Source: Candidatus Latescibacterota bacterium (GTDB lineage: Bacteria > Latescibacterota > UBA2968 > GCA-2709665). From it: 64,000 bases of DNA. The position numbers were made by a program, and so were the translations under genes. Below the pieces are notes generated by a model. The model saw only the letters and a list, made by a program, of their open reading frames with translations. It had not been told where the DNA came from and ran no database searches. The stretch covers positions 288,001 to 352,000 of the forward strand of contig OZ242358.1 of assembly GCA_965208835.1 (NCBI GenBank), in the 5' to 3' direction. Shown one piece after another: positions 40,240 through 55,580 of the stretch. How positions within the stretch are numbered: position 1 is the stretch's first letter; every line of letters begins with the position of its first letter.

Positions 40240-41598
40240 ATGAACAATGAACCCGATTCCATGGGCAAACGCCTTGACGTCGGACATAAACAATCGGGGA
40301 ATTTGCCGGTGGGTTACAAGCGAACTGAACTCGGTCTACTGCCTGACACGTGGGACGCAGTGCTTCTCGGTGACCTGTTCGTTTTCAAGAATGGCTTAAA
40401 CAAAGCCAAGCGTTTCTTCGGTACCGGGACACCTATCGTCAATTACATGGACGTTTTTGATCGCCCGGGGCTTAGTGCGGACGACCTATCAGGCAAGGTT
40501 TACCTCAGTCCTGAAGAGATCAAGAAATATGAGGTGCGGCAGGGAGACGTTTTCTTTACGCGTACTTCCGAGACTATAGAGGATGTTGGTGTTACATCCG
40601 TAATGCTCAACGAGCCCCGTGATACCGTGTTCAGTGGTTTTGTTCTTCGCGCCCGGCCGCGCGATGGTCGACTTGACAACAGCTACAAACAGTATTGCTT
40701 TGGACCCAGAGCAGTTAGGTCCCAGATCGTATCAAATGCAACATACACAACCCGTGCTCTGACGAATGGTCGATCCCTATCGGCAGTGTGGATCCCAGTT
40801 CCACCGAAGCCTGAGCAACGTGCCATCGCCGAGGCATTGTCGGATGTGGATGGTTTGCTTGCGGAGTTGGATGCGCTGATCGCCAAGAAGGGAGCCATCA
40901 AGCACGCCGCTATGCAGCAACTCCTCAAAGGCAAGAGCCGTTTGCAGGGGTTCAGCGGGGCGTGGCAGACTAAGCGGTTGGGAGATATGGGACGCTGCCT
41001 ACGCGGTGTTAGCTACGATCCGACGACAGACTTGTCTAGCTATGATAAAGACAGCACGGTAAGGCTTCTTCGATCGAGCAATATCCAAGATGCTGTCGTG
41101 ACGCCAACAGATGTCCATTATGTTGAAGCGCGAAAAGTGTCCGAGTCCCAAGTTATGCAACATAATGACATACTCGTCTGTATGGCGAATGGCAGTAAGG
41201 AGTTAGTCGGAAAAGCCGGGCTTTTTCGCATCCAAGATGGATATGCCTATACCTTTGGAGCGTTCATGGGATGCTTTCGCATCGAACTAACTATTGCTGA
41301 TCCGAGGTATGTATTTTATCTCTTCCAGTCATGCGAATTCCGCGACTTTGTTGGCCTAATCTTAGCTGGATCAAGCATCAACAATCTAAAGCCAAGCGAT
41401 ATCGAATCGGCTGAATTCCATATTCCAGACAGAAATGAACAACACGCAATCGCAGGCGTCCTCTCCGACATTGACACCGAGGTCGCCGGCTTGGAAGGAC
41501 GCAGGGAAAAGGCTTTCCTAATCAAGCGAGCCATGATGGAGCAACTTCTAACCGGGCGGGTGCGGCTGATCGAGGCAGAAGGAACAGAGGATGGCTAG
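40240..41598 (+). CDS. hsdS: Type I R-M specificity subunit
   Basis: GYKRTELGLLPDTW, two TRDs, PPKPEQRAIAEALSDVD and EQHAIAGVLSDID, MEQLLTGRVRL. Confidence 0.93.
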   Translation: MNNEPDSMGKRLDVGHKQSGNLPVGYKRTELGLLPDTWDAVLLGDLFVFKNGLNKAKRFFGTGTPIVNYMDVFDRPGLSADDLSGKVYLSPEEIKKYEVRQGDVFFTRTSETIEDVGVTSVMLNEPRDTVFSGFVLRARPRDGRLDNSYKQYCFGPRAVRSQIVSNATYTTRALTNGRSLSAVWIPVPPKPEQRAIAEALSDVDGLLAELDALIAKKGAIKHAAMQQLLKGKSRLQGFSGAWQTKRLGDMGRCLRGVSYDPTTDLSSYDKDSTVRLLRSSNIQDAVVTPTDVHYVEARKVSESQVMQHNDILVCMANGSKELVGKAGLFRIQDGYAYTFGAFMGCFRIELTIADPRYVFYLFQSCEFRDFVGLILAGSSINNLKPSDIESAEFHIPDRNEQHAIAGVLSDIDTEVAGLEGRREKAFLIKRAMMEQLLTGRVRLIEAEGTEDG

Positions 41599-44178
41599 CG
41601 TCGAGCAGGAAATCCGTAATTGGCTTCATCAGCAACAGGATTGGATTCAGGAAGCAGTTGAGAAACTGCTAGCGTCAGGTAGTTTGGAGGATAACGACAT
41701 CCAGGCCATCTCGGATCGTCTTAAGACCCCAGATGGGCAGCAGATAACGACTCACCGCAACTTCGAGGGTATTGGAAATTCCTCCTCATCCACAACCGAC
41801 GTTCACCTCCTTTCAATTGGTGATATCTGCGGAATCGAAAATCTATGTCCGCATCGTCCCCTTACGTTCGGAACCGGAAATCTCGCCGTGATCTACGGAC
41901 CCAACGGTTCGGGAAAATCCGGTTACACGCGCATCCTCAATAGAGTGTGCGGGAAACCGCGTGCGAAGGAGATCAAGCCCAACGTATTCGATAGTCGCCC
42001 TGCGAATCAGCAGTGTCGGATACGTTACGCAATAGGGGAAGAATACCAATCAGTTATTTGGCGACCGAGCGACATTGCGTTAGAGGACCTAAGAGCTGTC
42101 GATATATTTGACGCTGATGCTGCCGCTTTCTACATCAGCGAGGAAAAAGCGGTCTCCTACATGCCTCAGGCGGTAACGATGTTTGAGGCGCTAGCAAGTG
42201 TTTGCGACAGGGTCAAAGAGAAACTCCAATTCGAAAAGAGTCGATTGGTCAGCCAGCTGCCTAATCTGCCGCCAGAATATAGGTCGACTCCTCCTGGTAA
42301 AACATATACCCAGTTGAAACACGACCTCACCGAGCAACAGATCCAGTGTTTGACCAAATGGGGAGACGATAACGAAGAGAAACTTGGAAAATTGACAGAA
42401 CGCCTTAGTGCGGACGACCCGGTAAAGCTGGCGAAGATTAAGCGCAGCACGATAAGCCAACTCGAACAATTAGAATCTCAGTTGACGAACGCGGCGGAAG
42501 CCACAGGCAAGCAACAGGTGGAGGCCCTTCGGACAGCTCGAGAAAACGCAAGTCAGAAACGCAAGATTGCCGAAGAGGCAACCAACTTAAGTAAGCCAAG
42601 CTAGGCGGTATCGGCACCGAAACATGGAACGCTCTATGGGAGGCAGCGCGTGATTATTCGCAAATTGCCTATCCAGGACGAGACTATCCCGTTACAGAGG
42701 ACGACGCGAGGTGCGTCTTGTGCCATCAGAAATTGGCTCACGAGGCACGGAAACGTCTGCAGGAATTCGAAACTTTTGTCCAGGATGTAGTTGAAACTGA
42801 AGCCAAGTCGGCTGAAAACACCTACCGTGAAACGCTGGCAAAACTACCGACCAAATGGGATGACGCGGAGATCCGAACTAGATGTGAAGCTGCCGGGTTG
42901 ACGGAGGGTTGTTGGATCGACAAGCTTAGATCCTTTTGGGACAGAGTGGACGAAACGTGTAAGGATCTCTTGAACGGTGAAAACGATTCAAGAGCTGTCG
43001 CCATAGAACGACCCGATGATCTCTTGTTCGAGATGGCAAAACGTTCCGAATTACTGGAACGGGATGCACTGCAGCTTGATGAGGATGCGGAGAATTTCGA
43101 TCGAGAACAGGCACGCCAAGACAAGCTGAGTTTAGAGGCTTTGCGTTGGACGGCACAGCAAGCGACTGCAATTCACCTCGAGATCGTTCGACTAAAGAAA
43201 ATCGAGGATTATGACGAATGGGAACGACTGGCAAACTCACGGAGAATATCCCTAATGGCTGGACGTGTGGCTGAGAGGGTAGTCACGCAGGCGTATGTGG
43301 ATCGGTTCAATCGAGAACTCAAGCTGTTGGGCGCGTCGCGAATAAAGGTCAAACTAACCAAGACCCAGACGAGAAAAGGGCAAGCACTCCATGGGCTCCG
43401 CCTGAAGGGTGTACAACCTACGACAGAGAATGCTCCCGAAGCGGTCCTGAGCGAAGGAGAGCGTCGCGTCGTTTCTCTGGCGGCTTTTTTGGCCGATGTG
43501 GCAGAGAAGCCCCATGCGGCGCCATTCATTTTTGATGATCCGATCTCGTCGCTGGACCAAGACTTCGAGGGGCATGTGGCGACTCGTCTTGCGCAACTGG
43601 CACAAAGCCGCCAGGTACTCGTGTTCACACACCGGTTGTCTCTCTATGGTGCGATGGAGGATGCCGCAAGAAAGGTTGGTGCAGTTTGGAAAGACAGACA
43701 CCTTCAGCAGTGCTGTATTGAGTCGTTCTCAGGGTCCGCAGGACACCCGGCGGATGACGCTGTCTGGAATGTCAACACGAGGAAGGGCAACAATATCCTT
43801 TTGGAACGCCTCAAAGAGGCCAAGAAGGCCGGCGAAACGGGCGGTTCAAATGCCTACCAGATCCATGCACAGGGGATCTGCACTGATTTTCGCAAGCTTC
43901 TGGAGCGGACCGTCGAAGATGACTTATTGAATCAGGTCGTACGGCGGCACAGAAGGAGTGTAACGACGGAAAATAGATTGAATCCACTTGCAAGTATCAC
44001 ACGTGGAGACTGCGAATTTATCGACAATCTGATGACCAAGTATTCCTGCTACGAGCACAGTCAGTCGATGGAAACGCCGGCTTTCATTCCCGATGAGCCG
44101 GAACTTCGCGCTGACTTGGAGTCGCTGAAAGCATGGCGCGAAGAATTCAGGAAGCGTCCGCCGGAGTCCGGCATATGA
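41591..44178 (+). pseudogene. RloC-like SMC/ABC ATPase with zinc hook and HEPN-like tail, split by a 1-nt frameshift near 42592-42601
   Basis: Part 1 has Walker A GPNGSGKS; the alternate frame from 42595 reads AKLGGIGTETWNALWEAAR...CVLCHQ...LSEGERR...FDDPISSLD...VFTH...RKLLERTVE...KYSCYEH. Confidence 0.75.
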
Positions 44179-44825: not shown

Positions 44826-44859
44826 TCGGCCAGGTGTGGCCCATCGAATTGTAATCGTT

Positions 44860-45342
44860 ATGGCGGTAACGTTTTTGGAACATGAGATAGAGTCGTTGAT
44901 ACAAGAGCGCAAGCAACTGCCTCAGGATTGGCGTACCCGGATTCGTCTAAAGTCCAAGCGTGGCCACGAAGAACAACACCTTGATATAGCAGGTGATGCG
45001 GGGAGCGAGTTTCGTCTGATTTTCAGGCAGAATAAGATCAATCCCCTCGACTTCTCAGTTATTCTGGCCGTTCGAGTACCGGGATCAAACCAACTCTTCC
45101 GCCTCCGGCGCTATAATGGCAAAGGCCAAGAACATTCGAACCGCATTGAAGGCGTGAAATTCTATGATTTTCACATTCATGTTGCTACGGAGAGGTATCA
45201 GGAACTCGGAACCAGGGAGGATGCGTACGCCGATCCAACCGACCGTTTCGGAGACTATCACGGTGCCCTTCGTTGTCTGATTTCCGATGTGAATCTTGTG
45301 GTGCCGCCGGACCTCCAAGTTGACCTTTTCGAGGAGGTGTAA
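44860..45342 (+). CDS. DUF6978-like hypothetical protein
   Basis: LRRYNG...HSN...FHIHVATERYQ His-rich motif; coupled to a DUF1828-like gene. Confidence 0.55.
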   Translation: MAVTFLEHEIESLIQERKQLPQDWRTRIRLKSKRGHEEQHLDIAGDAGSEFRLIFRQNKINPLDFSVILAVRVPGSNQLFRLRRYNGKGQEHSNRIEGVKFYDFHIHVATERYQELGTREDAYADPTDRFGDYHGALRCLISDVNLVVPPDLQVDLFEEV

Positions 45343-45345
45343 GCA

Positions 45346-46122
45346 ATGTCCTTTGAGACCATAGAGCGAGACTTTCACGAGAAGGTCTCGGCTCAGATTC
45401 GGATTGCGGCCGAGGGTATGGAACGCTTCCGCGTGTTTACCCCGTTCATGTTCGACGACGGCGATCATCTGGACATCGTTTTAAGGAAGGACGGTACACG
45501 TTGGGTGCTTTCCGATGAAGCGCATACGTATATGCATCTGACATACGACATCGATGAGAAGGATCTCCATGGTGGCACGCGTCAAAAAATCATCTCAAAT
45601 ACACTTTCCATGTTTCAGATCGAGGATCGCGACGGAGAGTTGATACTCGACGTGCCGGAGGAACGTTACGGTGACGCACTGTATTCGTTCGTTCAGGGGC
45701 TACTCAAGATATCTGACGTTTCGTACTTAACTCGGGCAAGGGTTAGTTCCACATTTATGGACGATTTTCGTACGGTGATGAGTAATGCCCTACCTGAAGA
45801 GCGCAGAGAGTTTGACTGGAGCGATCCTTTAAGGGATCCTCAAGGAAAGTATACGGTTGACTGTCGAGTCAACGGTATGCAGCGGCCCTTGTTCGTTCAT
45901 GCCCTTGCCAACGACGGCAGGACCCGCGACGCCACGATCTCGCTTCATCAATTCGAACGGTGGGAAATACCGTTTCGTTCACTCGCTATTTTCGAAGATC
46001 AGGAGTCCATCAGTCGTAAGGTGTTAGCCCGCTTCAGTGACGTCTGCGAGAAGCAATTCTCCAGCCTCACTGCAAATCAAGAGAGGATAACGCGCTTTCT
46101 GAGCGAGAACATATCGGGATAA
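45346..46122 (+). CDS. DUF1828/DUF1829-like protein (possible PD-(D/E)xK C-terminal domain)
   Basis: TPFMFDDGDHL...WVLSDE.HT N-terminal motif; GKYTVDC in the C-terminal half. Confidence 0.7.
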   Translation: MSFETIERDFHEKVSAQIRIAAEGMERFRVFTPFMFDDGDHLDIVLRKDGTRWVLSDEAHTYMHLTYDIDEKDLHGGTRQKIISNTLSMFQIEDRDGELILDVPEERYGDALYSFVQGLLKISDVSYLTRARVSSTFMDDFRTVMSNALPEERREFDWSDPLRDPQGKYTVDCRVNGMQRPLFVHALANDGRTRDATISLHQFERWEIPFRSLAIFEDQESISRKVLARFSDVCEKQFSSLTANQERITRFLSENISG

Positions 46123-46344
46123 ACCACGATTTAAGTAGACTTGCTTAGATCGCCTTGGCGGAGTTGTGCCGGGACAGGATCCGTTCTGTCAAAAAGGGAG
46201 TGATGCTGCAGCTTCTTCCTAGACGGATGAGCCTGATCGAACTGAGTTTTAGATGGCACAACGGGCCAACGTTAGACACACGGAACCGAGTTTCTTCAAT
46301 TACAGACCTGTGATGCCAAAACACAGATTTCAGGAGGCATTTTG

Positions 46345-47304
46345 ATGGTCAATGCCGTAAATAGCCAGCAAGAGTCAGCGCCAACGATTGTTGAGGACGA
46401 ACACTTTCCGGGGCTATATCAGAGTGCCGATCGGTCCTCGATCTCGGCACAGCGGCGCTATATTCACTTTCATCGATGGCATTTATTCTGTCTTATCTTT
46501 GGGAGCGTTAGTGTCGCCATAGCGACGAAATTTCCAGTTGCCGCCACATGGACCTACGTTCTCCTAGCGATCGTTCTGGCAATTGGCATCTTTCTTACTC
46601 TGATATCCCGGGTCCGTCGGGATAATGAAGTTTGGTTTGACTGTCGGGCGATTGCTGAGTCAACAAAGACCGCCACATGGCGATTCATGATGAAGGCTGA
46701 ACCATTCAAGGATGACAGTACGTCTGAGCAGTCATTTCTTGAGAAACTTCGGCAAATTAGAGGGGCGAGACCTTCCAGCCCGAAGGATTTAGCGCAAAAC
46801 CTCGATGCAAACGCTCAATCCGTTAGTGGTTTTATGAATGAAATTCGTCGGAAATCCGTGGAAGAACGGCGGAACCTATATCTTGAGTCGCGGCTTCGCG
46901 ATCAAAAAACCTGGTATTCAAATAAAGCCATCTTCAATTCAAGGAAGGAAAATCGTTGGTCTTGGACAGTTGTTGTGCTACAGATTTCCGCCATTGTTTT
47001 TGCGATTATTCAGGCGTGTTTGAGTGGCTTACCATTAAACGTGGTCCCATTGTTGATGACTTGCGCTGCTTCTGCGGTCGCCTGGAGCCATATGAAGCGC
47101 TACAGTGAGCTGGCTCAGTCCTATTCGCTCGCCGCCCAGGAACTCGGAGATCAGGAAACAGTCGCGTTGGATATAACGGAAGAGGCTGATTTCCTCGAAC
47201 TCGTGGAGCAGGTCGAGGAGACTATCTCTCGTGAGCACACTATGTGGTGTGTACGGCGAAATGTAATTTTCGGTCCAACCCACGCGGACGACGAAATGGC
47301 GTAA
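46345..47304 (+). CDS. Tandem SLATT (DUF4231-like) 4-TM effector
   Basis: Two TM hairpins; WFDCRAIAESTKTATWRFMM and YLESRLRDQKTWY..KA..N; LVEQVEETISREHTMW; AGGAGG RBS. Confidence 0.85.
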   Translation: MVNAVNSQQESAPTIVEDEHFPGLYQSADRSSISAQRRYIHFHRWHLFCLIFGSVSVAIATKFPVAATWTYVLLAIVLAIGIFLTLISRVRRDNEVWFDCRAIAESTKTATWRFMMKAEPFKDDSTSEQSFLEKLRQIRGARPSSPKDLAQNLDANAQSVSGFMNEIRRKSVEERRNLYLESRLRDQKTWYSNKAIFNSRKENRWSWTVVVLQISAIVFAIIQACLSGLPLNVVPLLMTCAASAVAWSHMKRYSELAQSYSLAAQELGDQETVALDITEEADFLELVEQVEETISREHTMWCVRRNVIFGPTHADDEMA

Positions 47305-47392
47305 AGTCAGTATTCTGTTCCGAAACTTACTCTTCGATGGACAGAAGTCTTACGTGGCGTTCTTCAGATTCAAGCAATCAAGGATGATTAGG

Positions 47393-48418
47393 ATGACAAT
47401 CCAACATTGCGATGGAGCCAAATACCTTAACGTCGAATCCTCTACGGCAATCGAACGAAGCCAGGAGTTATACATCGCTGAGACAACCGTTCAACTACCT
47501 TGTTTCTTTCCTTCAGTTTCGAGCGTGAAGACAAGCCTATCGCCGGTCAGTTACGCTGACTTTCTGACCGTTACTGGTCATCCACTATTTTTAGCCTCTG
47601 CATATGATTTAGCCCATTGTCCTGATGATCAGCGCCCGGGCATGGAAACTGCCCTTAATAGACGTATAGATAGCGGTGCCGTTGTACTTATTGATAGCGG
47701 AAACTACGAAAGCTATTGGAAACAAGATTCCGATTGGGGACCGGCTGATTTTCATAAGGTCGTGCAATCCTATCAACACGATCTCTGCTTCTGTTTTGAT
47801 AACCTGATGCCACCTGACTCTCCGAAATTGATCTCCGACGATGTCGTGGCAGGTGTAACAAGAGATCAGGAGAATGCACAGACAACAGTGCTTCCGATAG
47901 TCCATGGCAACGCGGAAGCACTGCCTGATGCGGCGCGATTAACAGCGGAAAAGCTCTACCCTTTATTGTTGGCTGTCGCGGAACGAGATTTGGGTGAGGG
48001 AATTCTCGATCGGGTTCGCACCGTACGGAGAATCCGAGTAGCGTTAAACGCATTAGGCTTCTATTGCCCGCTTCACCTGCTTGGAACCGGAAATCCGATT
48101 TCAATCATTGCCTATACATTGGCAGGAGCCGATAGTTTTGATGGATTGGAATGGTGTCAGGCGGTCGTTGATCACGAGAATGGCAGGCTCTTACATTTTC
48201 AGCAATGGGATTTGATCCGAAACCAAACAGAGTGGGGTCAATCTCCCGTACTACCGTACGTCCAATCTGTCTTAATGCACAATCTGGTTTTTTATCGCGA
48301 GTTCATGGTAGGGTTTCAGGAAGCACTGTATACCGGAAGAGTTGAATCGTTCGTACAAAAGTATGTAACTAAGGAACAATTGGATCTACTATTGCCTGCT
48401 ATCGAAGGAGTTCAATAG
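47393..48418 (+). CDS. tRNA-guanine transglycosylase-like protein (Cap10-like)
   Basis: FFPSVSS, DSGNYES, PIVHG, LHLLGTG, GADSFDG, HNL; start uncertain (47354-47393). Confidence 0.8.
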   Translation: MTIQHCDGAKYLNVESSTAIERSQELYIAETTVQLPCFFPSVSSVKTSLSPVSYADFLTVTGHPLFLASAYDLAHCPDDQRPGMETALNRRIDSGAVVLIDSGNYESYWKQDSDWGPADFHKVVQSYQHDLCFCFDNLMPPDSPKLISDDVVAGVTRDQENAQTTVLPIVHGNAEALPDAARLTAEKLYPLLLAVAERDLGEGILDRVRTVRRIRVALNALGFYCPLHLLGTGNPISIIAYTLAGADSFDGLEWCQAVVDHENGRLLHFQQWDLIRNQTEWGQSPVLPYVQSVLMHNLVFYREFMVGFQEALYTGRVESFVQKYVTKEQLDLLLPAIEGVQ

Positions 48419-48419
48419 C

Positions 48420-49133
48420 TTGGCGCCGAAAAATTTCACGCTACTTTCTATCGAACAAGCGATCCGCGATGTGTGCAACACATTACAAGAACGCCCGACT
48501 GTGTCCTGGAGAAACCACAGCGAAGATGAACTGTGGAGAGAGCTTGTGTCATGTATCCTGGGTAGTCGGGTAAGAGTCAAGGCTGTTAATGCTGCCATCG
48601 AACGCATGAGCAGTATGTGTCTGTTGACGCGACCCCATCCACGCGCTTGTTTTAATCAACTTGAACAGGACACTATAACAGCGCTTACGGGAGGTTATCC
48701 TTTTTTTCGTGTCCGTGCCAATCAGATTCGGCGGGCGGCAGAACACATATACACTTCCCGAGGGTCAATTCTAAACCTGCTTAATGACTTAGATGACGTT
48801 TGTATAGCTCGAAGACTGTTAGTGCGAGAGGTTCCGGGTCTGGGACCGAAACAGGCAAGTCTTTTCCTCCGCAACATATGTTTCGCAAAGTACATTGCGA
48901 TCTTGGATGTACATATACTGACTTATTTGCGGTGGATAGGCATTACAGACTCATCGCTAAAATCGATTCCGAATCTAGGCCAATACGAAGCGTTGGAAGG
49001 CGCCTTTATCGAACATGCTTGTGCATTCGGATACTCGCCTGACCGGTTCGACCTTGCAGTCTGGATTGTAATAAGGGTAGTAAAGGAGGAATCCAAAATT
49101 GCGGATCGTGACTCTTGTATCGGGTGGATTTGA
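48420..49133 (+). CDS. 8-oxoguanine glycosylase/lyase-like HhH protein (Cap11-like)
   Basis: LWRELVSCILGS, GLGPKQASLFLRN (catalytic K), AILDVH (catalytic D), FDLAVW. Confidence 0.85.
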   Translation: MAPKNFTLLSIEQAIRDVCNTLQERPTVSWRNHSEDELWRELVSCILGSRVRVKAVNAAIERMSSMCLLTRPHPRACFNQLEQDTITALTGGYPFFRVRANQIRRAAEHIYTSRGSILNLLNDLDDVCIARRLLVREVPGLGPKQASLFLRNICFAKYIAILDVHILTYLRWIGITDSSLKSIPNLGQYEALEGAFIEHACAFGYSPDRFDLAVWIVIRVVKEESKIADRDSCIGWI

Positions 49134-49695
49134 TTCAACTCTTGTGAGCGTGATGGCGAAAGAGGAGGGAGCAGAGCTGTTTCCGCTTTTTGTTGATTAC
49201 GGCCAACTTGCCGTGCGCAATGAATGGGCGGCCTGCAAGCGACTTCACTCACAATTCGGTCTACCACCTGTTACGTACATGGATTTGTCTGGGTTTGGTA
49301 AGACGATCTCGAGTGGTCTCACAGACTGTAGTTTACGTATTAATGAAGATGCTTTTTTGCCGGGTCGCAATCTCCTATTTGTCTTGGCAGGAGCGGCTCA
49401 TGCTATTGATGTTCAGGCAAATAGCATCGCGCTCGGACTACTGAATCCCGCGGATCACATTTTTCCAGACCAAACGAAACAGTTTTTGGAAGAATGTGAA
49501 AGGATGATCGAGGTTGCGATGGGGAGCCGCATTCTTGTCCTTGCGCCTTTACTCGAGTTGTCAAAGCGAGATGTCTTGCTCTTGGCTAGCAAACGAGGGA
49601 TCACACAAGCCTATTCGTGTCATGCTGGTGGTGAAGAACCTTGTGGAGTGTGTATCGCATGCATTGAGATATATAATGCGAAAAAAAGGAGGTAA
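49099..49695 (+). CDS. QueC-like 7-cyano-7-deazaguanine synthase homolog (Cap9-like)
   Basis: SGGFDS PP-loop, VDYGQ, PGRNLLF, FPDQT, SCH...PCGVCIAC Zn site; TTG start after AAGGAGG. Confidence 0.88.
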   Translation: MRIVTLVSGGFDSTLVSVMAKEEGAELFPLFVDYGQLAVRNEWAACKRLHSQFGLPPVTYMDLSGFGKTISSGLTDCSLRINEDAFLPGRNLLFVLAGAAHAIDVQANSIALGLLNPADHIFPDQTKQFLEECERMIEVAMGSRILVLAPLLELSKRDVLLLASKRGITQAYSCHAGGEEPCGVCIACIEIYNAKKRR

Positions 49696-49697
49696 TG

Positions 49698-50201
49698 ATG
49701 GGTGGCATCGGCAGTGGTAGAGGATTGGACCCAAACGAAATGGAGACACTCGAGCAGCGTGTCAGAAGGTCATTTAGGGATCGTGTCGACGAGCACAAAC
49801 GCAATGTGTTTATTAGTTTTACGTCGGATGATCTCAGTGAGGTTAACTTGCTTCGTGCTCAGGCGAGGAACCAAGACAGCAACATTAGCTTTAATGATTG
49901 GTCACTGAGAAAGCCGTTCGATAGTGAGGCAGCCGACTACATCAGGCGCGGCATCAGGGAACGTATTCGCCAATCCTCTGTGACTGTTGTTTATGTGTCT
50001 GAAAACACCGCTGATAGCAGATGGGTCAACTGGGAGATACGAGAGAGCCTTGCAATGGGGAAGGGCATCGTCGCCATGCACAAAGGAAATACACCGCCAC
50101 GAAGACTTCCTAAGGCGATAACCGAAAACAATATCAGTGTCGTACCATGGAGACAGGATCGTCTTGCAAGTATCATTGAGAGGGAATCCGAGAATCGTTA
50201 G
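49698..50201 (+). CDS. ThsB-like TIR domain protein (DUF1863) with Gly-rich N-terminus
   Basis: NVFISF, FNDWSL, YIRRGIRERIRQSSVTVV, SRWVNWEI (catalytic Glu), GKGIVA; begins MGGIGSGRG. Confidence 0.88.
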   Translation: MGGIGSGRGLDPNEMETLEQRVRRSFRDRVDEHKRNVFISFTSDDLSEVNLLRAQARNQDSNISFNDWSLRKPFDSEAADYIRRGIRERIRQSSVTVVYVSENTADSRWVNWEIRESLAMGKGIVAMHKGNTPPRRLPKAITENNISVVPWRQDRLASIIERESENR

Positions 50202-50416
50202 AAGCGCAGCTGTAAACATAGCCTCGACATTTTTCAATGGTTATTGCTGGGATCTGTCCGCAAAAAGAATAGATATTGACGTCTCGGGTCAACGATTCAC
50301 GAAGCCAACAGGCGTATATGGAGATAAAGTGAATTTGAACGAACAAGATTTCTCGCGCCTCCTGGGATTGCTAAGTTGACTTCTTACAATAAGGTACTCG
50401 CTGAGGAGGGTCCCAA

Positions 50417-51778
50417 ATGTTGACACGGCTACGCCTGGAGAATTTCAAATCTTGGGAAAATACAGGTGACATAACGTTTAGGCCTATCACTGGCTTTTTC
50501 GGTACCAATAGTTCTGGTAAGACCAGCCTTTTTCAAGCTCTGTTACTGATGAAACAAACGATAGATTCCCCAGACCCTGGAATTGTGTTGCACTTCGGTG
50601 ATGAGAAAACACTAGTCGACTTAGGCGATTTTGAGAGTGTGGTCCACGAGCATGACACAGACCGAAGTATTAGACTGTCGCTGGGCTGGAACTCAGAGAT
50701 TGATCTGCCATTTCCGGATACGACTAACACTGGGACTCCAACGTCAGGTAACGAAATCGGATTTGATGTTGATCTCGCGGAGGAGAATGTCGGTTCCGGG
50801 AAGTCGCCAATACTCAGAAAAATGGCATATAGTGTCCGTGGAAGGCGGTTTGGTTTGGCGCAAGTACTGGGTAGGAAGGAACACGATTTGTTTGTCAGCG
50901 GTGCCGGCTTGGATAGGTCTCACCGCGTCAGCGATGACGGTCGGTTAGCTCGTTCGATTAAATTTCACGAGTTTAGATATTGGCTTCCTGAGTTTTTCAA
51001 AGACCCGGCTATAATGTATCGTCTCCAATACGCATTGGAGTTGTTCTTAAGGGATCTATTTTATCTTGGACCTCTCCGTGCCTACCCGTCTCGGATCTAT
51101 GCACGGTCTGGAGCACAACCTCGGGACATGGGCCCGGCAGGTGAATTCGCGGTAGACGCAATCCTATCGTCTCGCGAACGTGGCAGGAAGATTAGTCATC
51201 GTCGACGATCTCTAAGTTTCGAGAGATATGTCGCGCAATGGCTTATGCGTCTCGGATTGATATACGACTTTCGCGTAGTGGCATTAACTAAAGGGAGACG
51301 CCTGTTCGAGGTAAGGGTCCGAAAGTCACCCAATTCGGCGGAGGTTCTCCTCACGGACATCGGCTTCGGAGTTTCACAGATACTTCCCGTGTTGGTGCTT
51401 TGCTTCTATGTCCCACGTAAGTCCAAGATCATCTTGGAGCAGCCAGAGATTCACCTGCATCCCTCTGTGCAGGCGGGACTTGCCGATGTATTCGTCGACG
51501 CTTGGAAGCAACGCAATGTGCAAGTATTGTTCGAAAGCCATAGTGAGCATTTACTGCTCAGACTTCAGCGTCGTATCGCCGAGGGAAAAATAAAAAGAGA
51601 TGATGTTAGCCTCTTTTTCTGTTCGATGGACGACCGAGGTGTCTCGACACTCAGCCAACTCGAAGTAGACGATTTCGGGAACATTTCGAATTGGCCGAGG
51701 GATTTCTTTGGTGACCAATTCGGCGAGATTGCTAATATGAATGAGGCTGCGCAGAAGAGGAAGCGAGGTACTGTGTAG
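50417..51778 (+). CDS. AAA_15/AAA_21-type ABC ATPase with DUF3696 C-terminus
   Basis: LENFKSW, GTNSSGKTS, YLGPLR, DIGFGVSQILP, LEQPEIHLHP, ESHSEH, WPRDFF. Confidence 0.88.
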   Translation: MLTRLRLENFKSWENTGDITFRPITGFFGTNSSGKTSLFQALLLMKQTIDSPDPGIVLHFGDEKTLVDLGDFESVVHEHDTDRSIRLSLGWNSEIDLPFPDTTNTGTPTSGNEIGFDVDLAEENVGSGKSPILRKMAYSVRGRRFGLAQVLGRKEHDLFVSGAGLDRSHRVSDDGRLARSIKFHEFRYWLPEFFKDPAIMYRLQYALELFLRDLFYLGPLRAYPSRIYARSGAQPRDMGPAGEFAVDAILSSRERGRKISHRRRSLSFERYVAQWLMRLGLIYDFRVVALTKGRRLFEVRVRKSPNSAEVLLTDIGFGVSQILPVLVLCFYVPRKSKIILEQPEIHLHPSVQAGLADVFVDAWKQRNVQVLFESHSEHLLLRLQRRIAEGKIKRDDVSLFFCSMDDRGVSTLSQLEVDDFGNISNWPRDFFGDQFGEIANMNEAAQKRKRGTV

Positions 51779-51780
51779 GA

Positions 51781-52278
51781 ATGAGCAAGACGGAAATAGT
51801 AATGGATACGAATGTAGCTATCGTTGCAAATGGTGAAGCCGAACAGGCATGCGAAGACTGCATTTGTGCATGTATTGCAAGATTACGCCATATTATGGAT
51901 GAGTGCCGCCTCTTAGTGGACGACAATTACCGGGTCTTTAACGAATATCAGAGACACCTAAGACGCTCTGGACAACCAGGACCCGGCGACGCCTTTTTTA
52001 AATGGCTCTGGCTAAACCAGGCTAATAACGAACATTGCAGGATGGTTCCGGTGACGCCTCATGAAGATGATGATTGTGGATTCGAGGAATTCCCTGATGA
52101 TCCAAATCTAAGCACATTTGACCGATCTGATCGCAAATTTGTCGCAATAGCGTTGGCAAGCGGTACAGAGCCAATGGTTCTAAATGCCACCGATACGGAC
52201 TGGTGGTCGCACCGGCACGTATTAGGAAGACATGGCGTTGGGTTAGTCTTCATCTGTCCAGAACTGATGATCCGCTGA
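51781..52278 (+). CDS. PIN-domain-like protein
   Basis: IVMDTNV, FNEY, DRSDRKFVA, NATDTDW acidic tetrad pattern. Confidence 0.7.
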   Translation: MSKTEIVMDTNVAIVANGEAEQACEDCICACIARLRHIMDECRLLVDDNYRVFNEYQRHLRRSGQPGPGDAFFKWLWLNQANNEHCRMVPVTPHEDDDCGFEEFPDDPNLSTFDRSDRKFVAIALASGTEPMVLNATDTDWWSHRHVLGRHGVGLVFICPELMIR

Positions 52279-52430: not shown

Positions 52431-55400
52431 ATGACCTCAGTCGGCCAAAAGGAAATACGCACACAGCGACAGGTGATCGCCTTCTTCCGGTATGCGCTTG
52501 GATACAACTATCTCGGTGACTGGCAGGATCGCACCGATAACAGCAATATCGAGAAGGGGCTGCTTACCAATTGGTTGAAGCGAAATGGTCACCGCGATAG
52601 GGTAATCAACAAGGTACTGCGTGATCTCGACAAGGCAGGTGCAATCGGCGGCAGTAAGACGCTCTACGATGCAAACCGTGAGGTGTACGGTCTGCTTCGT
52701 TACGGCGTGAAGGTACGACCTGACGTCGGCGAACCGAACGTCACTGTCTGGCTGATCGACTGGGTGAATCCGGCAAATAACGACTTCGCGATCGCCGAGG
52801 AAGTTACGGTGTCAGATACAAACACCAAGCGACCGGACATCGTACTGTACGTTAACGGACTCGCGCTTGGGGTGCTGGAATTGAAGCGCTCGACGGTATC
52901 GGTTGCGGAAGGTATCCGGCAGAACCTCGACAACCAGAAGAAGGAGTTCATCCGGCCGTTTTTTGCCACGGTGCAACTCGTGATGGCTGGAAATGATTCC
53001 GAAGGGTTGCGCTACGGCGTGATCGAGACACCCGAGAAATACTGGCTGCGCTGGAAAGAAACGAACGGCATCCCGGCTGCTGGCGACAATCCTTTACTGC
53101 GCGAGTTGAGCCAGCTCTGCAGCAAAGAGCGATTACTTGAAATCGTACACGACTTCGTCGTCTTTGACGCAGGCGTAAAGAAGATTTGTCGCCACAACCA
53201 ATACTTCGGTGTTCGTGCGGCCCAGGAGCGAGTGAAAAGCCGGGAGGGCGGCATCATCTGGCACACGCAAGGCAGCGGCAAGAGCCTGACGATGGTCTGG
53301 CTGGCGAAATGGATTCGCGAGAACGTCACCGACTCAAGAGTCCTTCTCATCACGGATCGTACCGAGTTGGATGAGCAAATTGAGGCTGTCTTTAAGGGTG
53401 TCAGCGAGGACATCTACCGCACGAAGAGTGGCGCTGATCTCGTGCAGGTGCTAAATAGACCTGACGAATGGCTGATCGGCTCCCTTATCCACAAGTTCGG
53501 TGCAACCGAGGACATCAGCGAAAGAGAAATCGAGGACTATGTCGAGGAGATCAAGAAGAATCTACCCGGTGGGTTCCGTGCCAAGGGCGAGATTTTCGTT
53601 TTCGTGGACGAATGTCACCGCACCCAGTCCGGGAAACTACACGAGGCAATGAAGGCAATATTGCCGGGCGCGATGCTGGTCGGCTTTACCGGCACGCCGT
53701 TACTTAAATCAGACAAACGCCGAAGTATCGAGACCTTTGGTACCTACATCCACACCTACAAGTACGATGAAGCAGTTCGCGACGGCGTGGTACTGGACTT
53801 ACGTTACGAGGCTCGTGACATCGATCAGAATACCACCTCCCAGGAGAAGATAGACCAGTGGTTCGAAGTCAAGACGCAGGGACTGAACGATGTGGCGAAG
53901 GCACAACTGAAGCAGCGCTGGGGCACGATGCGGAAAGTGTTAAGCTCACGGGATCGCCTGGAGAAGATCGTCGCCGACATTCAGATGGACATGGAGATAA
54001 ACGACCGACTCAAGAGCGGTCATGGCAATGCCCTTCTGATTTCTGGCAGCATCGACTCCGCCTGCCGCTTCTTTGAGATGTTTCAGCAGACAGATCTGGC
54101 GGGAAAATGCGCCATCGTCACGTCCTACAAACCGGCGCCAGGAGACATCAAAGGTGAGGAGACCGGCGAAGGACTAACGGAAAAGCTGCGGCGATACAGT
54201 ATCTATCGAAAGATGCTTGCCGCGCACTTCGACGAGCCGGAAGACACCGCAATGAACAAGGTTGAACGGTTTGAACTCGAGGTAAAGAAGCGATTCGTCA
54301 AGGAACCGGGCCAGATGAAGCTGCTGATCGTGGTAGATAAGCTGCTGACCGGTTTCGATGCGCCATCTGCGACATATCTCTACATTGACAAACACATGCA
54401 GGACCACGGGCTTTTCCAGGCGATCTGCCGAGTCAATCGCCTCGACGGCGACGACAAAGAATACGGATACATCGTCGACTACAAGGACCTGTTCCGCTCG
54501 CTGGAGCAGTCAATTCAGGATTATACCGGAGGAGCCTTCGGCGGGTACGACCAAGCCGATGTGAAGGGGTTGCTCAAAGATAGACTCACGAAAGGTCGGG
54601 AACGGCTCGAGGAAACGCGAGAAGCGATCCGGGCGCTGTGCGAACCTGTCGCGCCGCCACGCGACTCTGCGTCATACCGGCGTTTCTTCTGCGGGATCGA
54701 AAGTGGCGATATAGAGGAACTCAAGGAAAACGAGCCGCGGCGTATAGCCCTTTATAAGCGGACTGCGGCGCTTTTGCGAGCTTACGCAAACCTGGCCAAT
54801 GAAATGCAAGAGGCAGGTTATAGTGAAGCCGAAACGCAGCAGATCAGGATAGAGGTTGATCACTACGAAAATGTCCGAAAGGAGGTCAAACTCGCGAGTG
54901 GCGACTACATCGACCTGAAGATGTATGAGCCCGCTATGCGCCACCTCCTCGACACATACATCCGCGCTGAGGATAGCGAAAAGCTCTCGACATTTGACGA
55001 CCTAACACTTGTGCAACTGATTGTCAAGCAAGGTGAAAACGCATTGAATACGTTACCTGAGAGTATCCGCAGCGATCCCGAAGCGGCGGCCGAGACGATA
55101 GAAAATAACATGCGTCGTCTGATCATCGACGAGACGCCCGTTAACCCGAAATATTACGGCAGGATGTCTGAGCTGCTGGACGCTCTGATCCTCCAGCGGA
55201 AGCAGGAACGTCTAGACTACAAGATGTACCTGGCAAGAATTGTTGAATTGGCCGGAAAAGTGACCAACCCTGAAACCGAGACGTCGTATCCATCGGAAAT
55301 TGACAGCAACACACTCAGGACACTATTCGACAACCTACAGGGCGCTACAGTTGGACAGGATAGACCGTATGCCGATTCGGCCATAGAACGTTCCAAGGAT

Positions 55401-55580
55401 GAACTGATCGAAAAGGCGGTCGCGGTCGATCACGCCATCCGAAGTGTAAAGAAAGCCGACTGGCGAGGAAACAAGTTTAAGGAACGGGAGGTCCGCAATG
55501 CTATCAAGTCTCAACTTGGTGACAACGACGACCTCGTATACCAGATATTCGAGATTGTAAAGGCACAGAGTGAATACTAA
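52431..55580 (+). CDS. hsdR: Type I restriction endonuclease subunit R
   Basis: RPDIVLYVNG..LGVLELK nuclease, HTQGSGKS, DECHR, FTGTP, LLTGFDAP, QAICRVNR. Confidence 0.95.
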   Translation: MTSVGQKEIRTQRQVIAFFRYALGYNYLGDWQDRTDNSNIEKGLLTNWLKRNGHRDRVINKVLRDLDKAGAIGGSKTLYDANREVYGLLRYGVKVRPDVGEPNVTVWLIDWVNPANNDFAIAEEVTVSDTNTKRPDIVLYVNGLALGVLELKRSTVSVAEGIRQNLDNQKKEFIRPFFATVQLVMAGNDSEGLRYGVIETPEKYWLRWKETNGIPAAGDNPLLRELSQLCSKERLLEIVHDFVVFDAGVKKICRHNQYFGVRAAQERVKSREGGIIWHTQGSGKSLTMVWLAKWIRENVTDSRVLLITDRTELDEQIEAVFKGVSEDIYRTKSGADLVQVLNRPDEWLIGSLIHKFGATEDISEREIEDYVEEIKKNLPGGFRAKGEIFVFVDECHRTQSGKLHEAMKAILPGAMLVGFTGTPLLKSDKRRSIETFGTYIHTYKYDEAVRDGVVLDLRYEARDIDQNTTSQEKIDQWFEVKTQGLNDVAKAQLKQRWGTMRKVLSSRDRLEKIVADIQMDMEINDRLKSGHGNALLISGSIDSACRFFEMFQQTDLAGKCAIVTSYKPAPGDIKGEETGEGLTEKLRRYSIYRKMLAAHFDEPEDTAMNKVERFELEVKKRFVKEPGQMKLLIVVDKLLTGFDAPSATYLYIDKHMQDHGLFQAICRVNRLDGDDKEYGYIVDYKDLFRSLEQSIQDYTGGAFGGYDQADVKGLLKDRLTKGRERLEETREAIRALCEPVAPPRDSASYRRFFCGIESGDIEELKENEPRRIALYKRTAALLRAYANLANEMQEAGYSEAETQQIRIEVDHYENVRKEVKLASGDYIDLKMYEPAMRHLLDTYIRAEDSEKLSTFDDLTLVQLIVKQGENALNTLPESIRSDPEAAAETIENNMRRLIIDETPVNPKYYGRMSELLDALILQRKQERLDYKMYLARIVELAGKVTNPETETSYPSEIDSNTLRTLFDNLQGATVGQDRPYADSAIERSKDELIEKAVAVDHAIRSVKKADWRGNKFKEREVRNAIKSQLGDNDDLVYQIFEIVKAQSEY

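What the first reader, a model, noticed from the sequence alone, without database searches (positions are those of the whole stretch)
49687..49730. TIR protein starts MGGIGSGRG: a candidate N-terminal Gly acceptor for deazaguanylation
Seen: AGGAGG (49687-49692) lies 2 nt from ATG 49695 but 5 nt from ATG 49698, so the second ATG is the likely start. Met removal would expose GGIGSGRG, followed by a ~25-aa linker before the TIR core. The start sits directly after the QueC stop. Established: QueC-like Cap9 and QatC modify the N-terminus of their partners (type IV CD-NTase, QatB), at a Gly as I recall. Inference: the Gly-rich tail is a portable modification tag grafted onto a TIR, which would extend protein deazaguanylation to a third substrate class.
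Basis: partly seen in the sequence, partly recalled or inferred. Interest (0 to 1): 0.85.

Follow-up and report, generated by a model that had tools for sequence, protein, structure and literature searches.

The report
Glycine-tagged TIR beside QueC-like enzyme
A bacterial TIR immune-signalling enzyme carries the same glycine-rich N-terminal tag that a neighbouring QueC-like enzyme is known to decorate with a modified nucleobase on other proteins, so it is very probably a third kind of target for that unusual protein modification, an idea already proposed in a 2025 preprint but not yet tested.

Summary
AGGAGG (49687-49692), the QueC stop (TAA 49693-49695) and two ATGs (49695, 49698) are as described. 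In all 8 aligned relatives only the second ATG position (a GTG in one of them) is a start.

The gene ends a five-gene operon: SLATT effector, Cap10-like TGT, Cap11-like OGG, Cap9-like QueC and a ThsB-type TIR. This is a Thoeris system carrying the ancillary genes of type IV CBASS.

The tail tracks QueC. Of 73 QueC-linked TIR loci, window included, 69 begin start-Gly-Gly plus a Gly/Ser-rich run. None of 23 evaluable TIR loci without QueC does.

Cap9 and Cap10 catalytic residues are conserved, and the host has queuosine-pathway genes. A complex model docks TIR residues 9-33, a predicted helix, onto the QueC-like protein (0.64, best control 0.07). The "linker" is therefore probably a docking helix. 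The tail plus helix also resembles that of a Bacillus type IV CD-NTase.

Most likely Gly2 is deazaguanylated (NDG) by the QueC-like enzyme, which regulates TIR signalling to SLATT.

A December 2025 preprint already describes Thoeris operons with cap9/10/11 and models the interaction. This is a new member of a described kind, not tested by experiment in the papers searched.

The parts
46342..47304 (+). SLATT membrane effector (SLATT_3 + SLATT_1), ThsH-like
   Evidence: Pfam SLATT_3 E 3.2e-33 and SLATT_1 E 5e-32. A SLATT homologue lies in 48 of 72 QueC-linked relatives' loci.
47354..48418 (+). Cap10-like TGT-family protein
   Evidence: Pfam TGT E 1.3e-10; PADLOC TGT E 6.7e-23. The best solved relative is Cap10, 9ntn_A (E 3e-7 alone, 8.1e-20 with profile A4). 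The equivalents of Cap10 D73/S74, D122, H226 and D248 are invariant in 61 sequences.
48420..49133 (+). Cap11-like OGG / HhH-GPD glycosylase
   Evidence: Pfam Ogg-HhH E 3.7e-22. An OGG homologue is present in 65 of 72 QueC-linked relatives' loci.
49099..49695 (+). Cap9-like QueC-family enzyme (TTG start; its stop overlaps the first ATG)
   Evidence: Pfam QueC E 2.9e-34; PADLOC CBASS QueC model E 1.3e-27. The best solved relative is Cap9, 9nto_B, E 6e-13. SGGxDS, R90-N91, D124 and four Zn cysteines are invariant in 66 sequences.
49687..49692 (+). Shine-Dalgarno AGGAGG inside the end of the QueC-like gene
   Evidence: Read directly. GGAG is conserved in 8 of 9 aligned junctions; L006 has GGAC.
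49698..50201 (+). ThsB-type TIR protein, 167 aa, start at the second ATG
   Evidence: Pfam ThsB_TIR E 1.5e-24. Solved relatives are TIR 8fz9_A and ThsB 6lhy_A. W112-E113 is invariant in 66 sequences. The start is supported.
49698..49730 (+). Gly/Ser-rich N-terminal tail (residues 1-11, MGGIGSGRGLD); Gly2 is the proposed NDG acceptor
   Evidence: G2 in 65 of 66 and G3 in 65 of 66 sequences. pLDDT is below 50 for residues 1-10. The tail goes with QueC.
49731..49778 (+). Predicted amphipathic helix (residues 12-27), proposed docking element for the Cap9-like (and possibly the Cap10-like) protein
   Evidence: DSSP helix 12-27 in the AF2 model. The confident interface residues of the TIR in the complex model all lie within residues 9-33. 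L18 is conserved in at least 90% of sequences.
49800..50198 (+). TIR catalytic core (residues 35-167)
   Evidence: AF2 secondary structure with strands from residue 35, pLDDT mostly 70-95. The profile matches solved TIR 8fz9_A over residues 35-159.

Best explanation
The gene is the signal-producing TIR (ThsB) of a Thoeris-type anti-phage system with a SLATT effector. The system has also acquired the three ancillary genes of type IV CBASS: Cap10-like TGT, Cap11-like OGG and Cap9-like QueC.

Proposed mechanism:
- Translation starts at ATG 49698, coupled to the end of the QueC-like gene.
- Methionine aminopeptidase removes Met1 and exposes Gly2 (established rule for a small second residue).
- The helix at residues 12-27 docks on the Cap9-like enzyme.
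- The Cap10-like protein then binds the NDG-tagged tail. By analogy with CdnD, it holds or primes the TIR until infection.
- The active TIR makes an NAD-derived signal, probably canonical cADPR, that triggers the SLATT protein to damage the membrane.

Shown here: the gene order, the domains, the conserved start, the conserved tail and its link to QueC, the conserved catalytic residues, and a supportive complex model. Inferred: the covalent modification, its chemistry, its regulatory effect and the identity of the signal.
For: - Operon and domains.
- The best solved relatives of the QueC-like and TGT-like proteins are Cap9 and Cap10.
- Cap9 residues S18/D22/S23, L83, R86 and D117 have identical counterparts, and Y115 is F. 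SGGxDS, RN, D124, K156 and four cysteines are invariant in 66 sequences.
- The Cap10 D73/S74, D122, H226 and D248 counterparts are invariant in 61 sequences.
- The tail fits the published acceptor pattern: G2 and G3 each in 65 of 66 sequences, positions 4-8 mostly G/S, against the published M(G/S)G(G/S)GG with NDG on G2 (10.1101/2025.04.06.647259, section 6 read).
- The tail goes with QueC in 69 of 73 linked loci and in 0 of 23 unlinked ones. The scan patterns that found the loci lay in the TIR core, not in the tail.
- The QueC stop and the TIR start lie 0-3 nt apart in 49 of 69 adjacent pairs.
- Complex model: score 0.64, best control 0.07 (58 of 80 solved complexes and 2 of 110 mismatched pairs reached the mark). 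The runs agree in at least 71% of contacts and the partner's pLDDT is at least 72. The TIR interface is residues 9-33 only. The Cap9-like interface includes M19 and S109, which align with Cap9 M29 and L104, two of the three published interface positions.
- A Bacillus type IV CD-NTase begins MGGSGGNNIPSKTLSQLEQEK. The TIR profile aligns to it with 74% probability, E 2.8e-5, over 28 columns.
- The host has two canonical QueC genes, a QueD/PTPS gene and a Tgt gene, and a weak QueE-like match, so the substrate is plausibly available.
- The TIR E113 aligns with the Glu of the ThsB 'YE' motif in 6lhy.
- The preprint reports AF3 models of a ThsB with Cap10 (ipTM 0.79) and Cap9 (0.62).
Against: - No mass or peptide evidence exists for any TIR.
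- The complex model does not place residues 1-8 with confidence, so Gly2 in the active site is not modelled. A Cap9-CdnD structure is solved, so the pass may partly reflect that likeness.
- The window's own tail (MGGIGS) departs from the strict published motif at positions 4 and 6.
- Cap10 K154 aligns with a hydrophobic residue in this family (a weakly aligned stretch).
- Only 1 of the 3 acidic Cap10 helix residues that I mapped by hand is acidic in the window.
- Four QueC-linked loci lack the tail. L016 has Ala2.
- The QueE match is below the family's cut-off.
- The link between tail and QueC is partly shared ancestry, because most tailed TIRs form one family.
Confidence: 0.75

Rival explanations
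1. The tail and helix bind the Cap9-like and Cap10-like proteins, but the chemistry differs from NDG. The options are another deazaguanine derivative, adenylation only, or pure non-covalent regulation.
For: Residues 1-8 are not confidently placed in the complex model. Cap10 K154, a nucleobase-reading residue, is not conserved by the alignment. For QatC, one group could not reconstitute activity (PMC13279940, passages seen), which shows that QueC-family chemistry is not uniform.
Against: The Cap9 ATP-loop, the D117 and R86 counterparts and the Zn site are invariant. Four of five other nucleobase or catalytic Cap10 residues are invariant. The tail keeps Gly at position 2 in 65 of 66 sequences, as an acceptor would need.
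Confidence: 0.12
2. The QueC/TGT/OGG trio acts on nucleic acid, for example a deazaguanine modification of DNA or tRNA or its removal. The Gly-rich tail would then be an unrelated flexible extension that travels with the operon by descent.
For: All three enzymes come from nucleic-acid modification or repair families. Most tailed TIRs belong to one family, so the co-occurrence could be inherited.
Against: The best solved relatives are the protein-directed Cap9 and Cap10. The tail is kept across 43-89% identity and many phyla while the neighbouring residues vary. A similar tail sits on an unrelated CD-NTase next to Cap9/Cap10. The complex model passes its controls through the N-terminal extension only.
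Confidence: 0.06
3. Translation starts at ATG 49695, giving Met-Met-Gly. Met1 would then not be removed and no N-terminal Gly would be exposed in this organism.
For: An in-frame ATG exists at 49695 and overlaps the upstream stop (TAATG), an arrangement used elsewhere for coupled re-initiation. Three Pseudomonas-type loci (L061 and L069; L111) and one of the Rhizobiales-order sample (L126) also read MMGG.
Against: The spacing from AGGAGG is 2 nt to this ATG and 5 nt to the next. None of 8 close relatives has this ATG, and all keep the second start. 119 of 120 closest homologues are called from M-G-(G/S).
Confidence: 0.05

Closest known systems
[quoted passage not shown] 6G and S10B; passages seen, figures and tables not visible)
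   Same: A ThsB-type TIR plus an effector in one operon with cap9, cap10 and cap11 homologues. The interaction of the TIR with Cap9 and Cap10 is predicted by modelling, in the preprint by AF3 and here.
   Different: The preprint's example is from a Pseudomonadales bacterium. The window's nearest relatives are Latescibacterota genomes. In the passages I saw, the preprint does not describe the N-terminal Gly motif, its statistics or the docking helix.
Type IV CBASS (CD-NTase CdnD + Cap9 + Cap10 + Cap11; 10.1101/2025.04.06.647259)
   Same: The three ancillary genes, their catalytic residues, an N-terminal Met-Gly-Gly Gly/Ser-rich tail followed by a helix on the signalling enzyme, and a SLATT-type effector class also used by CBASS.
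   Different: The signalling enzyme is a TIR and not a CD-NTase, so the second messenger is NAD-derived and not a cyclic oligonucleotide. The gene order also differs: TGT-OGG-QueC-TIR here, OGG-QueC-TGT-CD-NTase in the Bacillus example. The Cap10 surface that grips CdnD helices is not conserved.
Type VII Thoeris (ThsB + SLATT effector ThsH, canonical cADPR signal; same preprint)
   Same: A ThsB_TIR protein with a SLATT effector. Relatives without SLATT carry TPR-S / MAP3K_TRAF_bd proteins, which resemble the type VIII effector said to answer the same signal.
   Different: Type VII as described is a two-gene system. Here three ancillary genes lie between the effector and the TIR, and the TIR has a 34-residue N-terminal extension.
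QatABCD (QatC QueC-like + QatB; PMC13279940, PMC13639016)
   Same: A QueC-family enzyme, and a partner with a disordered N-terminus that starts Met-Gly. G2 is essential, and an NDG peptide is reported for QatB.
   Different: QatC has large extra domains and a remodelled site. The QatB motif is MGTS, there is no TGT or OGG, and the partner has no known enzymatic fold.

Membership tests
Type IV CBASS | A CD-NTase (SMODS) signalling enzyme in the operon | tested here: not met
   No ORF in 44836-52278 matches a CD-NTase family. A ThsB TIR occupies the place after the QueC-like gene.
Type IV CBASS | Cap9 (QueC-like), Cap10 (TGT-like) and Cap11 (OGG-like) ancillary genes | tested here: met
   Pfam and PADLOC matches. 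The best solved relatives are Cap9 9nto_B and Cap10 9ntn_A.
Thoeris | A ThsB-type TIR protein with the catalytic glutamate | tested here: met
   ThsB_TIR E 1.5e-24. E113 is invariant in 66 sequences and aligns with the Glu of 6lhy ThsB. That this Glu is the catalytic one is recalled and comes from no call.
Thoeris | An effector gene in the same operon that answers the TIR signal | tested here: inconclusive
   A SLATT_3+SLATT_1 protein lies at 46342-47304 in the same direction. That it responds to a TIR product cannot be tested with these tools.
NDG (deazaguanylation) substrates | Met-Gly N-terminus with a Gly/Ser-rich motif | tested here: met
   The protein starts MGGIGSG. G2 and G3 are each present in 65 of 66 sequences. 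The strict published motif M(G/S)G(G/S)GG is not matched by the window at positions 4 and 6.
NDG (deazaguanylation) substrates | A flexible N-terminal tail ahead of the folded domain | tested here: met
   pLDDT is below 50 for residues 1-10. The extension is 31-37 residues long in 61 of 66 sequences; in the other 5 my pattern found no core start. This rests on a prediction only.
NDG (deazaguanylation) substrates | Forms a complex with its QueC-family enzyme | tested here: inconclusive
   The model supports binding: 0.64 against a best control of 0.07 (58 of 80 solved complexes and 2 of 110 mismatched pairs reached the mark). The runs agree in at least 71% of contacts and the partner's pLDDT is at least 72. 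This is a model and not a measurement, and a like complex has been solved.
NDG (deazaguanylation) substrates | Covalent 7-amido-7-deazaguanine on the Gly2 amine | not testable with these tools
   This needs intact-mass and peptide MS.
Cap9 family | SxGxDS pyrophosphate loop, RN, the D117 equivalent, the Zn cysteines, and a short length of ~185-200 aa | tested here: met
   S8-G-G-x-D12-S13, R90-N91, D124, and C174/C182/C185/C188 are invariant. The protein is 198 aa long.
Cap10 family | Nucleobase-reading D73, S74, D122 and K154 and the catalytic pair H226/D248 | tested here: inconclusive
   D114/S115, D149, H241 and D263 are invariant and align to D73/S74, D122, H226 and D248. K154 aligns to a hydrophobic residue in a weakly aligned stretch.

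The most novel reading that the evidence does not exclude
The Gly/Ser tail plus amphipathic helix is a self-contained, transferable recognition module for QueC-family protein ligases. On this reading it has been placed on unrelated enzymes: CD-NTases, TIRs, QatB, and possibly the small MGS(S/T)G(S/T)G-initiated proteins encoded upstream of the PfkB-deoxyribosyltransferase-QueC 'cluster 4' genes. N-terminal deazaguanylation would then be a general switch for immune signalling enzymes and not a peculiarity of one CBASS type.
Probability: 0.4. Interest if true: 0.7.

Novelty: new member of a known kind. Interest (0 to 1): 0.45.

Why it matters
Protein deazaguanylation is so far shown for the type IV CBASS cyclase, and an NDG peptide has been reported for QatB. 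A TIR target would show that the same nucleobase tag controls a second, chemically different immune signalling pathway, one that is NAD-derived and not a cyclic oligonucleotide. It would also give a compact 167-residue substrate with a 34-residue tag for working out what the Cap10-like transglycosylase does with the tagged protein. That step is still unknown for CBASS. The comparative data here define the tag (Gly2-Gly3, a G/S run and a docking helix) and give clear mutants to test.

Tried and rejected
- A profile of the TIR family against solved structures found only TIR cores. Nothing matched the N-terminal 34 residues, and CdnD was not retrieved.
- A scan of viral contigs with the Cap9-like alignment gave 12 loci. 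Only 2 were close relatives, and one of these (L111) was again TIR-linked; the downstream partner of the other (L112) was not identified. The rest were canonical-looking QueC genes. No new partner class came from it.
- A sample of 401 genomes of the order of G168 was searched with the PADLOC CBASS QueC model. It gave 4 full-length Cap9-like loci, all TIR-linked, and no CD-NTase example. The one CD-NTase tail I compared came from a Bacillus plasmid.
- Promoter and terminator scans of 46000-50500 gave no more sites than shuffles.
- The PF01702 search of the host genome listed only the canonical Tgt and not the window's own Cap10-like gene, so that tool's first look can miss diverged copies.
- The QueE search gave only a sub-threshold match, so CDG supply in the host is likely but not established.
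- I considered whether the tail could be an artefact of start-codon choice by gene callers and rejected it. The stop-to-stop frames show the start codon directly before G-G in 68 of 72 QueC-linked loci from other genomes.
- Supplementary tables of the papers were not opened. Table S1 and Figs 6G/S10 of the preprint may already list this family.

Full report
**What is in the sequence.**
AGGAGG lies at 49687-49692 and TAA at 49693-49695. One ATG lies at 49695 and shares its A with the stop. A second ATG lies at 49698. The upstream ORF (49099-49695, TTG start) is a QueC-family protein. The downstream ORF encodes a 167-residue protein from the second ATG, beginning MGGIGSGRGLDPNEMETLEQRVRRSFRDRVDEHKRNVFISF.

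**The operon.**
Five genes run head to tail on the + strand:

| Coordinates | Gene product |
|---|---|
| 46342-47304 | SLATT_3+SLATT_1 membrane protein |
| 47354-48418 | TGT-family protein |
| 48420-49133 | Ogg-HhH glycosylase |
| 49099-49695 | QueC-family protein |
| 49698-50201 | ThsB_TIR protein |

- The closest solved relative of the QueC-like protein is Cap9 (9nto_B, E 6e-13), ahead of canonical QueC.
- The closest solved relative of the TGT-like protein is Cap10 (9ntn_A, E 3e-7 alone and 8.1e-20 with a 61-sequence profile).
- The surroundings are a defence island: PDC-S06-like, DUF6978/DUF1828, HEC-03 and a type I restriction subunit.

**Which ATG.**
I aligned the junction with 8 relatives.
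- All keep GGAG (GGAC in one) 5-6 nt before a single start at the position of 49698. The start is ATG in 7 and GTG in one.
- In all of them the QueC stop lies 2 nt upstream.
- None has the first ATG, which the window creates by having TG in the two spacer positions.
- 119 of the 120 closest database homologues (61-92% identity) are called from M-G-(G/S); the exception is MVGG.
- If the first ATG were used, Met-Met would not be trimmed and no Gly would be exposed. The comparative data make that unlikely.

**Is the tail tied to QueC?**
The search for related loci used two peptide patterns that lie in the TIR core, not in the tail. It returned 80 loci at 43-89% identity from many phyla, out of 157 confirmed stretches in the genome collection.
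- A QueC homologue lies directly upstream in 72 of the 80 loci. Of those 72, TGT is present in 68, OGG in 65 and SLATT in 48.
- As a control I took the 30 best ThsB_TIR loci from 168 genomes of the host's phylum.
- With one rule (a start codon followed by G-G and at least 4 G/S in residues 2-8), 69 of 73 QueC-linked loci have the tail, the window included, and 0 of 23 evaluable unlinked loci do. These counts set aside 5 repeats in the control set: 4 loci that I judged to be the same as L001, L002, L003 and L005, and the window's own locus L097.
- The four QueC-linked exceptions are L016 (Met-Ala-Gly), L021 (Met-Gly-Asn), L028 (no start codon found) and L031 (QueC and TIR in one ORF with the tail region deleted).
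- Ten loci were set aside: seven at contig edges or with a truncated core, and three with no phmmer match to the query TIR.
- Two unlinked relatives, L058 and L066, start V-G-G-A-S and M-G-S-E-D. They fail the rule and sit next to TPR-S proteins.
- The loci are related, so these counts overstate independence. The tail nonetheless persists down to 43% identity while the flanking residues change.
- More distant ThsB proteins in the 50%-clustered library often begin directly at the TIR core: 31 of the 150 best representatives. 24 of the 150 have the G-G, G/S-rich start.

**Are the enzymes intact?**
In 66 Cap9-like sequences the SGGxDS loop, R90-N91, D124, K156 and four cysteines are invariant.
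- By the alignment these correspond to Cap9 S18/D22/S23, R86, D117 and the zinc site. Y115 is Phe.
- In 61 Cap10-like sequences D114/S115, D149, H241 and D263 are invariant. They align with Cap10 D73/S74, D122, H226 and D248.
- K154 aligns with a hydrophobic residue in a weak stretch, which counts against a perfect match.
- TIR E113 is invariant and aligns with the Glu of the ThsB 6lhy 'YE' motif.
- The host genome holds two canonical QueC genes, a QueD/PTPS gene, a Tgt gene and a sub-threshold QueE-like match. 7-carboxy-7-deazaguanine is therefore plausibly available.

**What the 'linker' is.**
AlphaFold2 with the 66-sequence alignment gives residues 1-10 at pLDDT below 50, a helix at 12-27, and the TIR fold from residue 35 (mean pLDDT 76.3).
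- The complex model of the Cap9-like protein with the TIR scored 0.64 against a best control of 0.07. That mark was reached by 58 of 80 solved complexes and 2 of 110 mismatched pairs. The runs agree in at least 71% of contacts, and the partner's pLDDT is at least 72. My own alignments were used, so the calibration holds only roughly.
- All confident TIR contacts lie in residues 9-33, mainly M15, L18, V22 and F26, which form one face of the helix.
- On the enzyme the contacts include M19 and S109. By these are the counterparts of Cap9 M29 and L104, two of the three residues whose mutation broke the Cap9-CdnD interface (paper section 7).
- A Cap9-CdnD structure exists, so part of this pass may be likeness. 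The model does not place Gly2.

**Comparison with a CD-NTase.**
A Bacillus mycoides plasmid carries a type IV CBASS with the order OGG-like, QueC, TGT-like, 'CBASS oligonucleotide cyclase'.
- The cyclase begins MGGSGGNNIPSKTLSQLEQEKQEQLE.
- The TIR profile aligns to it over 28 columns with 74% probability and E 2.8e-5.
- The published Rhizobiales CdnD peptide 2-15 is GGSGGSFGSGFDPR (paper section 6). The window has GGIGSGRGLDPN.
- The tail-plus-helix unit therefore looks alike on two unrelated enzymes. Whether this is by descent or by convergence I cannot tell.

**Mechanism.**
The most likely reading (0.75) has these steps:
1. Met1 is removed.
2. The helix docks on the Cap9-like enzyme.
3. Gly2 is amidated with 7-carboxy-7-deazaguanine to give NDG.
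4. The Cap10-like protein binds the tagged tail.
5. The TIR signals to the SLATT effector on infection.

The signal is probably canonical cADPR. The preprint reports that signal for TIRs paired with SLATT (type VII) or with TPR-containing effectors (type VIII). SLATT-less relatives of this family carry MAP3K_TRAF_bd/TPR-S proteins next to the operon. This last step is inference.

**What is known.**
- Wassarman et al. (10.1101/2025.04.06.647259; outline and sections 5-7 read) established NDG on CdnD Gly2.
- PMC13279940 (passages seen) showed that the QatB MGTS motif and G2 are essential.
- PMC13639016 (passages seen) reports an NDG-modified QatB peptide.
- The preprint 10.64898/2025.12.03.692087 (passages seen) states that Thoeris operons occur with cap9, cap10 and cap11. 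It also states that AF3 predicts ThsB binding to Cap10 (ipTM 0.79) and Cap9 (0.62).
- My searches were 'deazaguanylation'; 'QueC, TGT, SLATT, TIR'; 'Cap9, Thoeris'; and 'QueC, TIR domain, OGG, transglycosylase'. They found no paper that reports a modified TIR or describes the TIR Gly motif.
- Figures and supplements were not visible to me.

**Verdict.**
The system is a new member of a kind already described in a preprint. The experiment that would make it a finding, MS of the TIR N-terminus, is still open as far as the searched library shows.

Noticed in passing
L157:2275-5256; L154:3287-6291; L156:2452-4606; L158:3001-5323; L159:3001-3369 (plasmid records, outside the window): This is a different QueC-family operon. 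A small protein of 109-127 aa starts MGSSGSGNFSDY, MGSTGSGSFSDY, MGSTGTGRFGDY or MGSTGSGSFTDY (one Pseudomonas copy starts MSGSSTT). In 4 records whose context I read (L154, L156, L157, L158) it lies directly upstream of a PfkB + nucleoside deoxyribosyltransferase fusion and a QueC-like gene; in 2 more (Proteus, by hit coordinates) a QueC-like match lies about 1.3 kb downstream. The three are fused into one 658-aa protein in Bacillus, and an OGG-like gene often follows. The QueC family paper (PMC13082051, passages seen) files this 'cluster 4' under purine salvage and, in what I saw, does not mention the small protein. Its conserved Met-Gly-Ser N-terminus suggests a further protein target of QueC-type modification. 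The small protein has no Pfam or PADLOC family.
   Followed up: partly
L155:1700-6062; L111:1861-5057; L040:3479-4600: In Rhizobium and Pseudomonas-type variants the Cap10-like gene carries an N-terminal TIR_2 domain (467 aa in L155), so the operon holds two TIR domains. A PfkB-family kinase sits just upstream (L155, L078). L040 has a separate TIR_2 protein upstream of TGT.
   Followed up: partly
L020:3238-4596; L027:6914-8254; L038:7360-8784; L062:7451-8800; L058:5637-6998; L065:1349-3634: Relatives without a SLATT gene have a ~450-aa MAP3K_TRAF_bd / TPR-S protein next to the operon. The tail-less sister TIRs L058 and L065 sit directly after such a protein with no QueC/TGT. This suggests that SLATT and TPR-S proteins are alternative effectors for this TIR family.
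   Followed up: partly
L031:6254-7339: In one Latescibacterota genome the QueC-like and TIR sequences lie in a single 362-codon open frame. The end of QueC and roughly the first 50 TIR residues, tail included, are missing. This looks like a deletion that fused and probably disabled the pair. P0122 and P0161 in the representative library look like similar QueC-TIR and TGT-TIR chimeras.
   Followed up: no
window 41591-44178: Two adjacent ORFs (41591-42604 and 42718-44178) together resemble one PDC-S06 ATPase. The second ORF matches positions 382-859 of an 862-position PADLOC model (E 5.3e-186). The gene may be split or frameshifted.
   Followed up: no
window 44836-46122 and 50417-52278: The operon is flanked by other candidate defence pairs: DUF6978 + DUF1828 (PDC-M24B-like) upstream, and HEC-03B ATPase + HEC-03A downstream. 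A type I restriction R subunit-like ORF follows at 52431-55580.
   Followed up: no
G000:C1:2893962-2894591 and 4749717-4750334: The host genome has two full-length canonical QueC matches (208 and 197 bits) in addition to the Cap9-like copy in the window.
   Followed up: no
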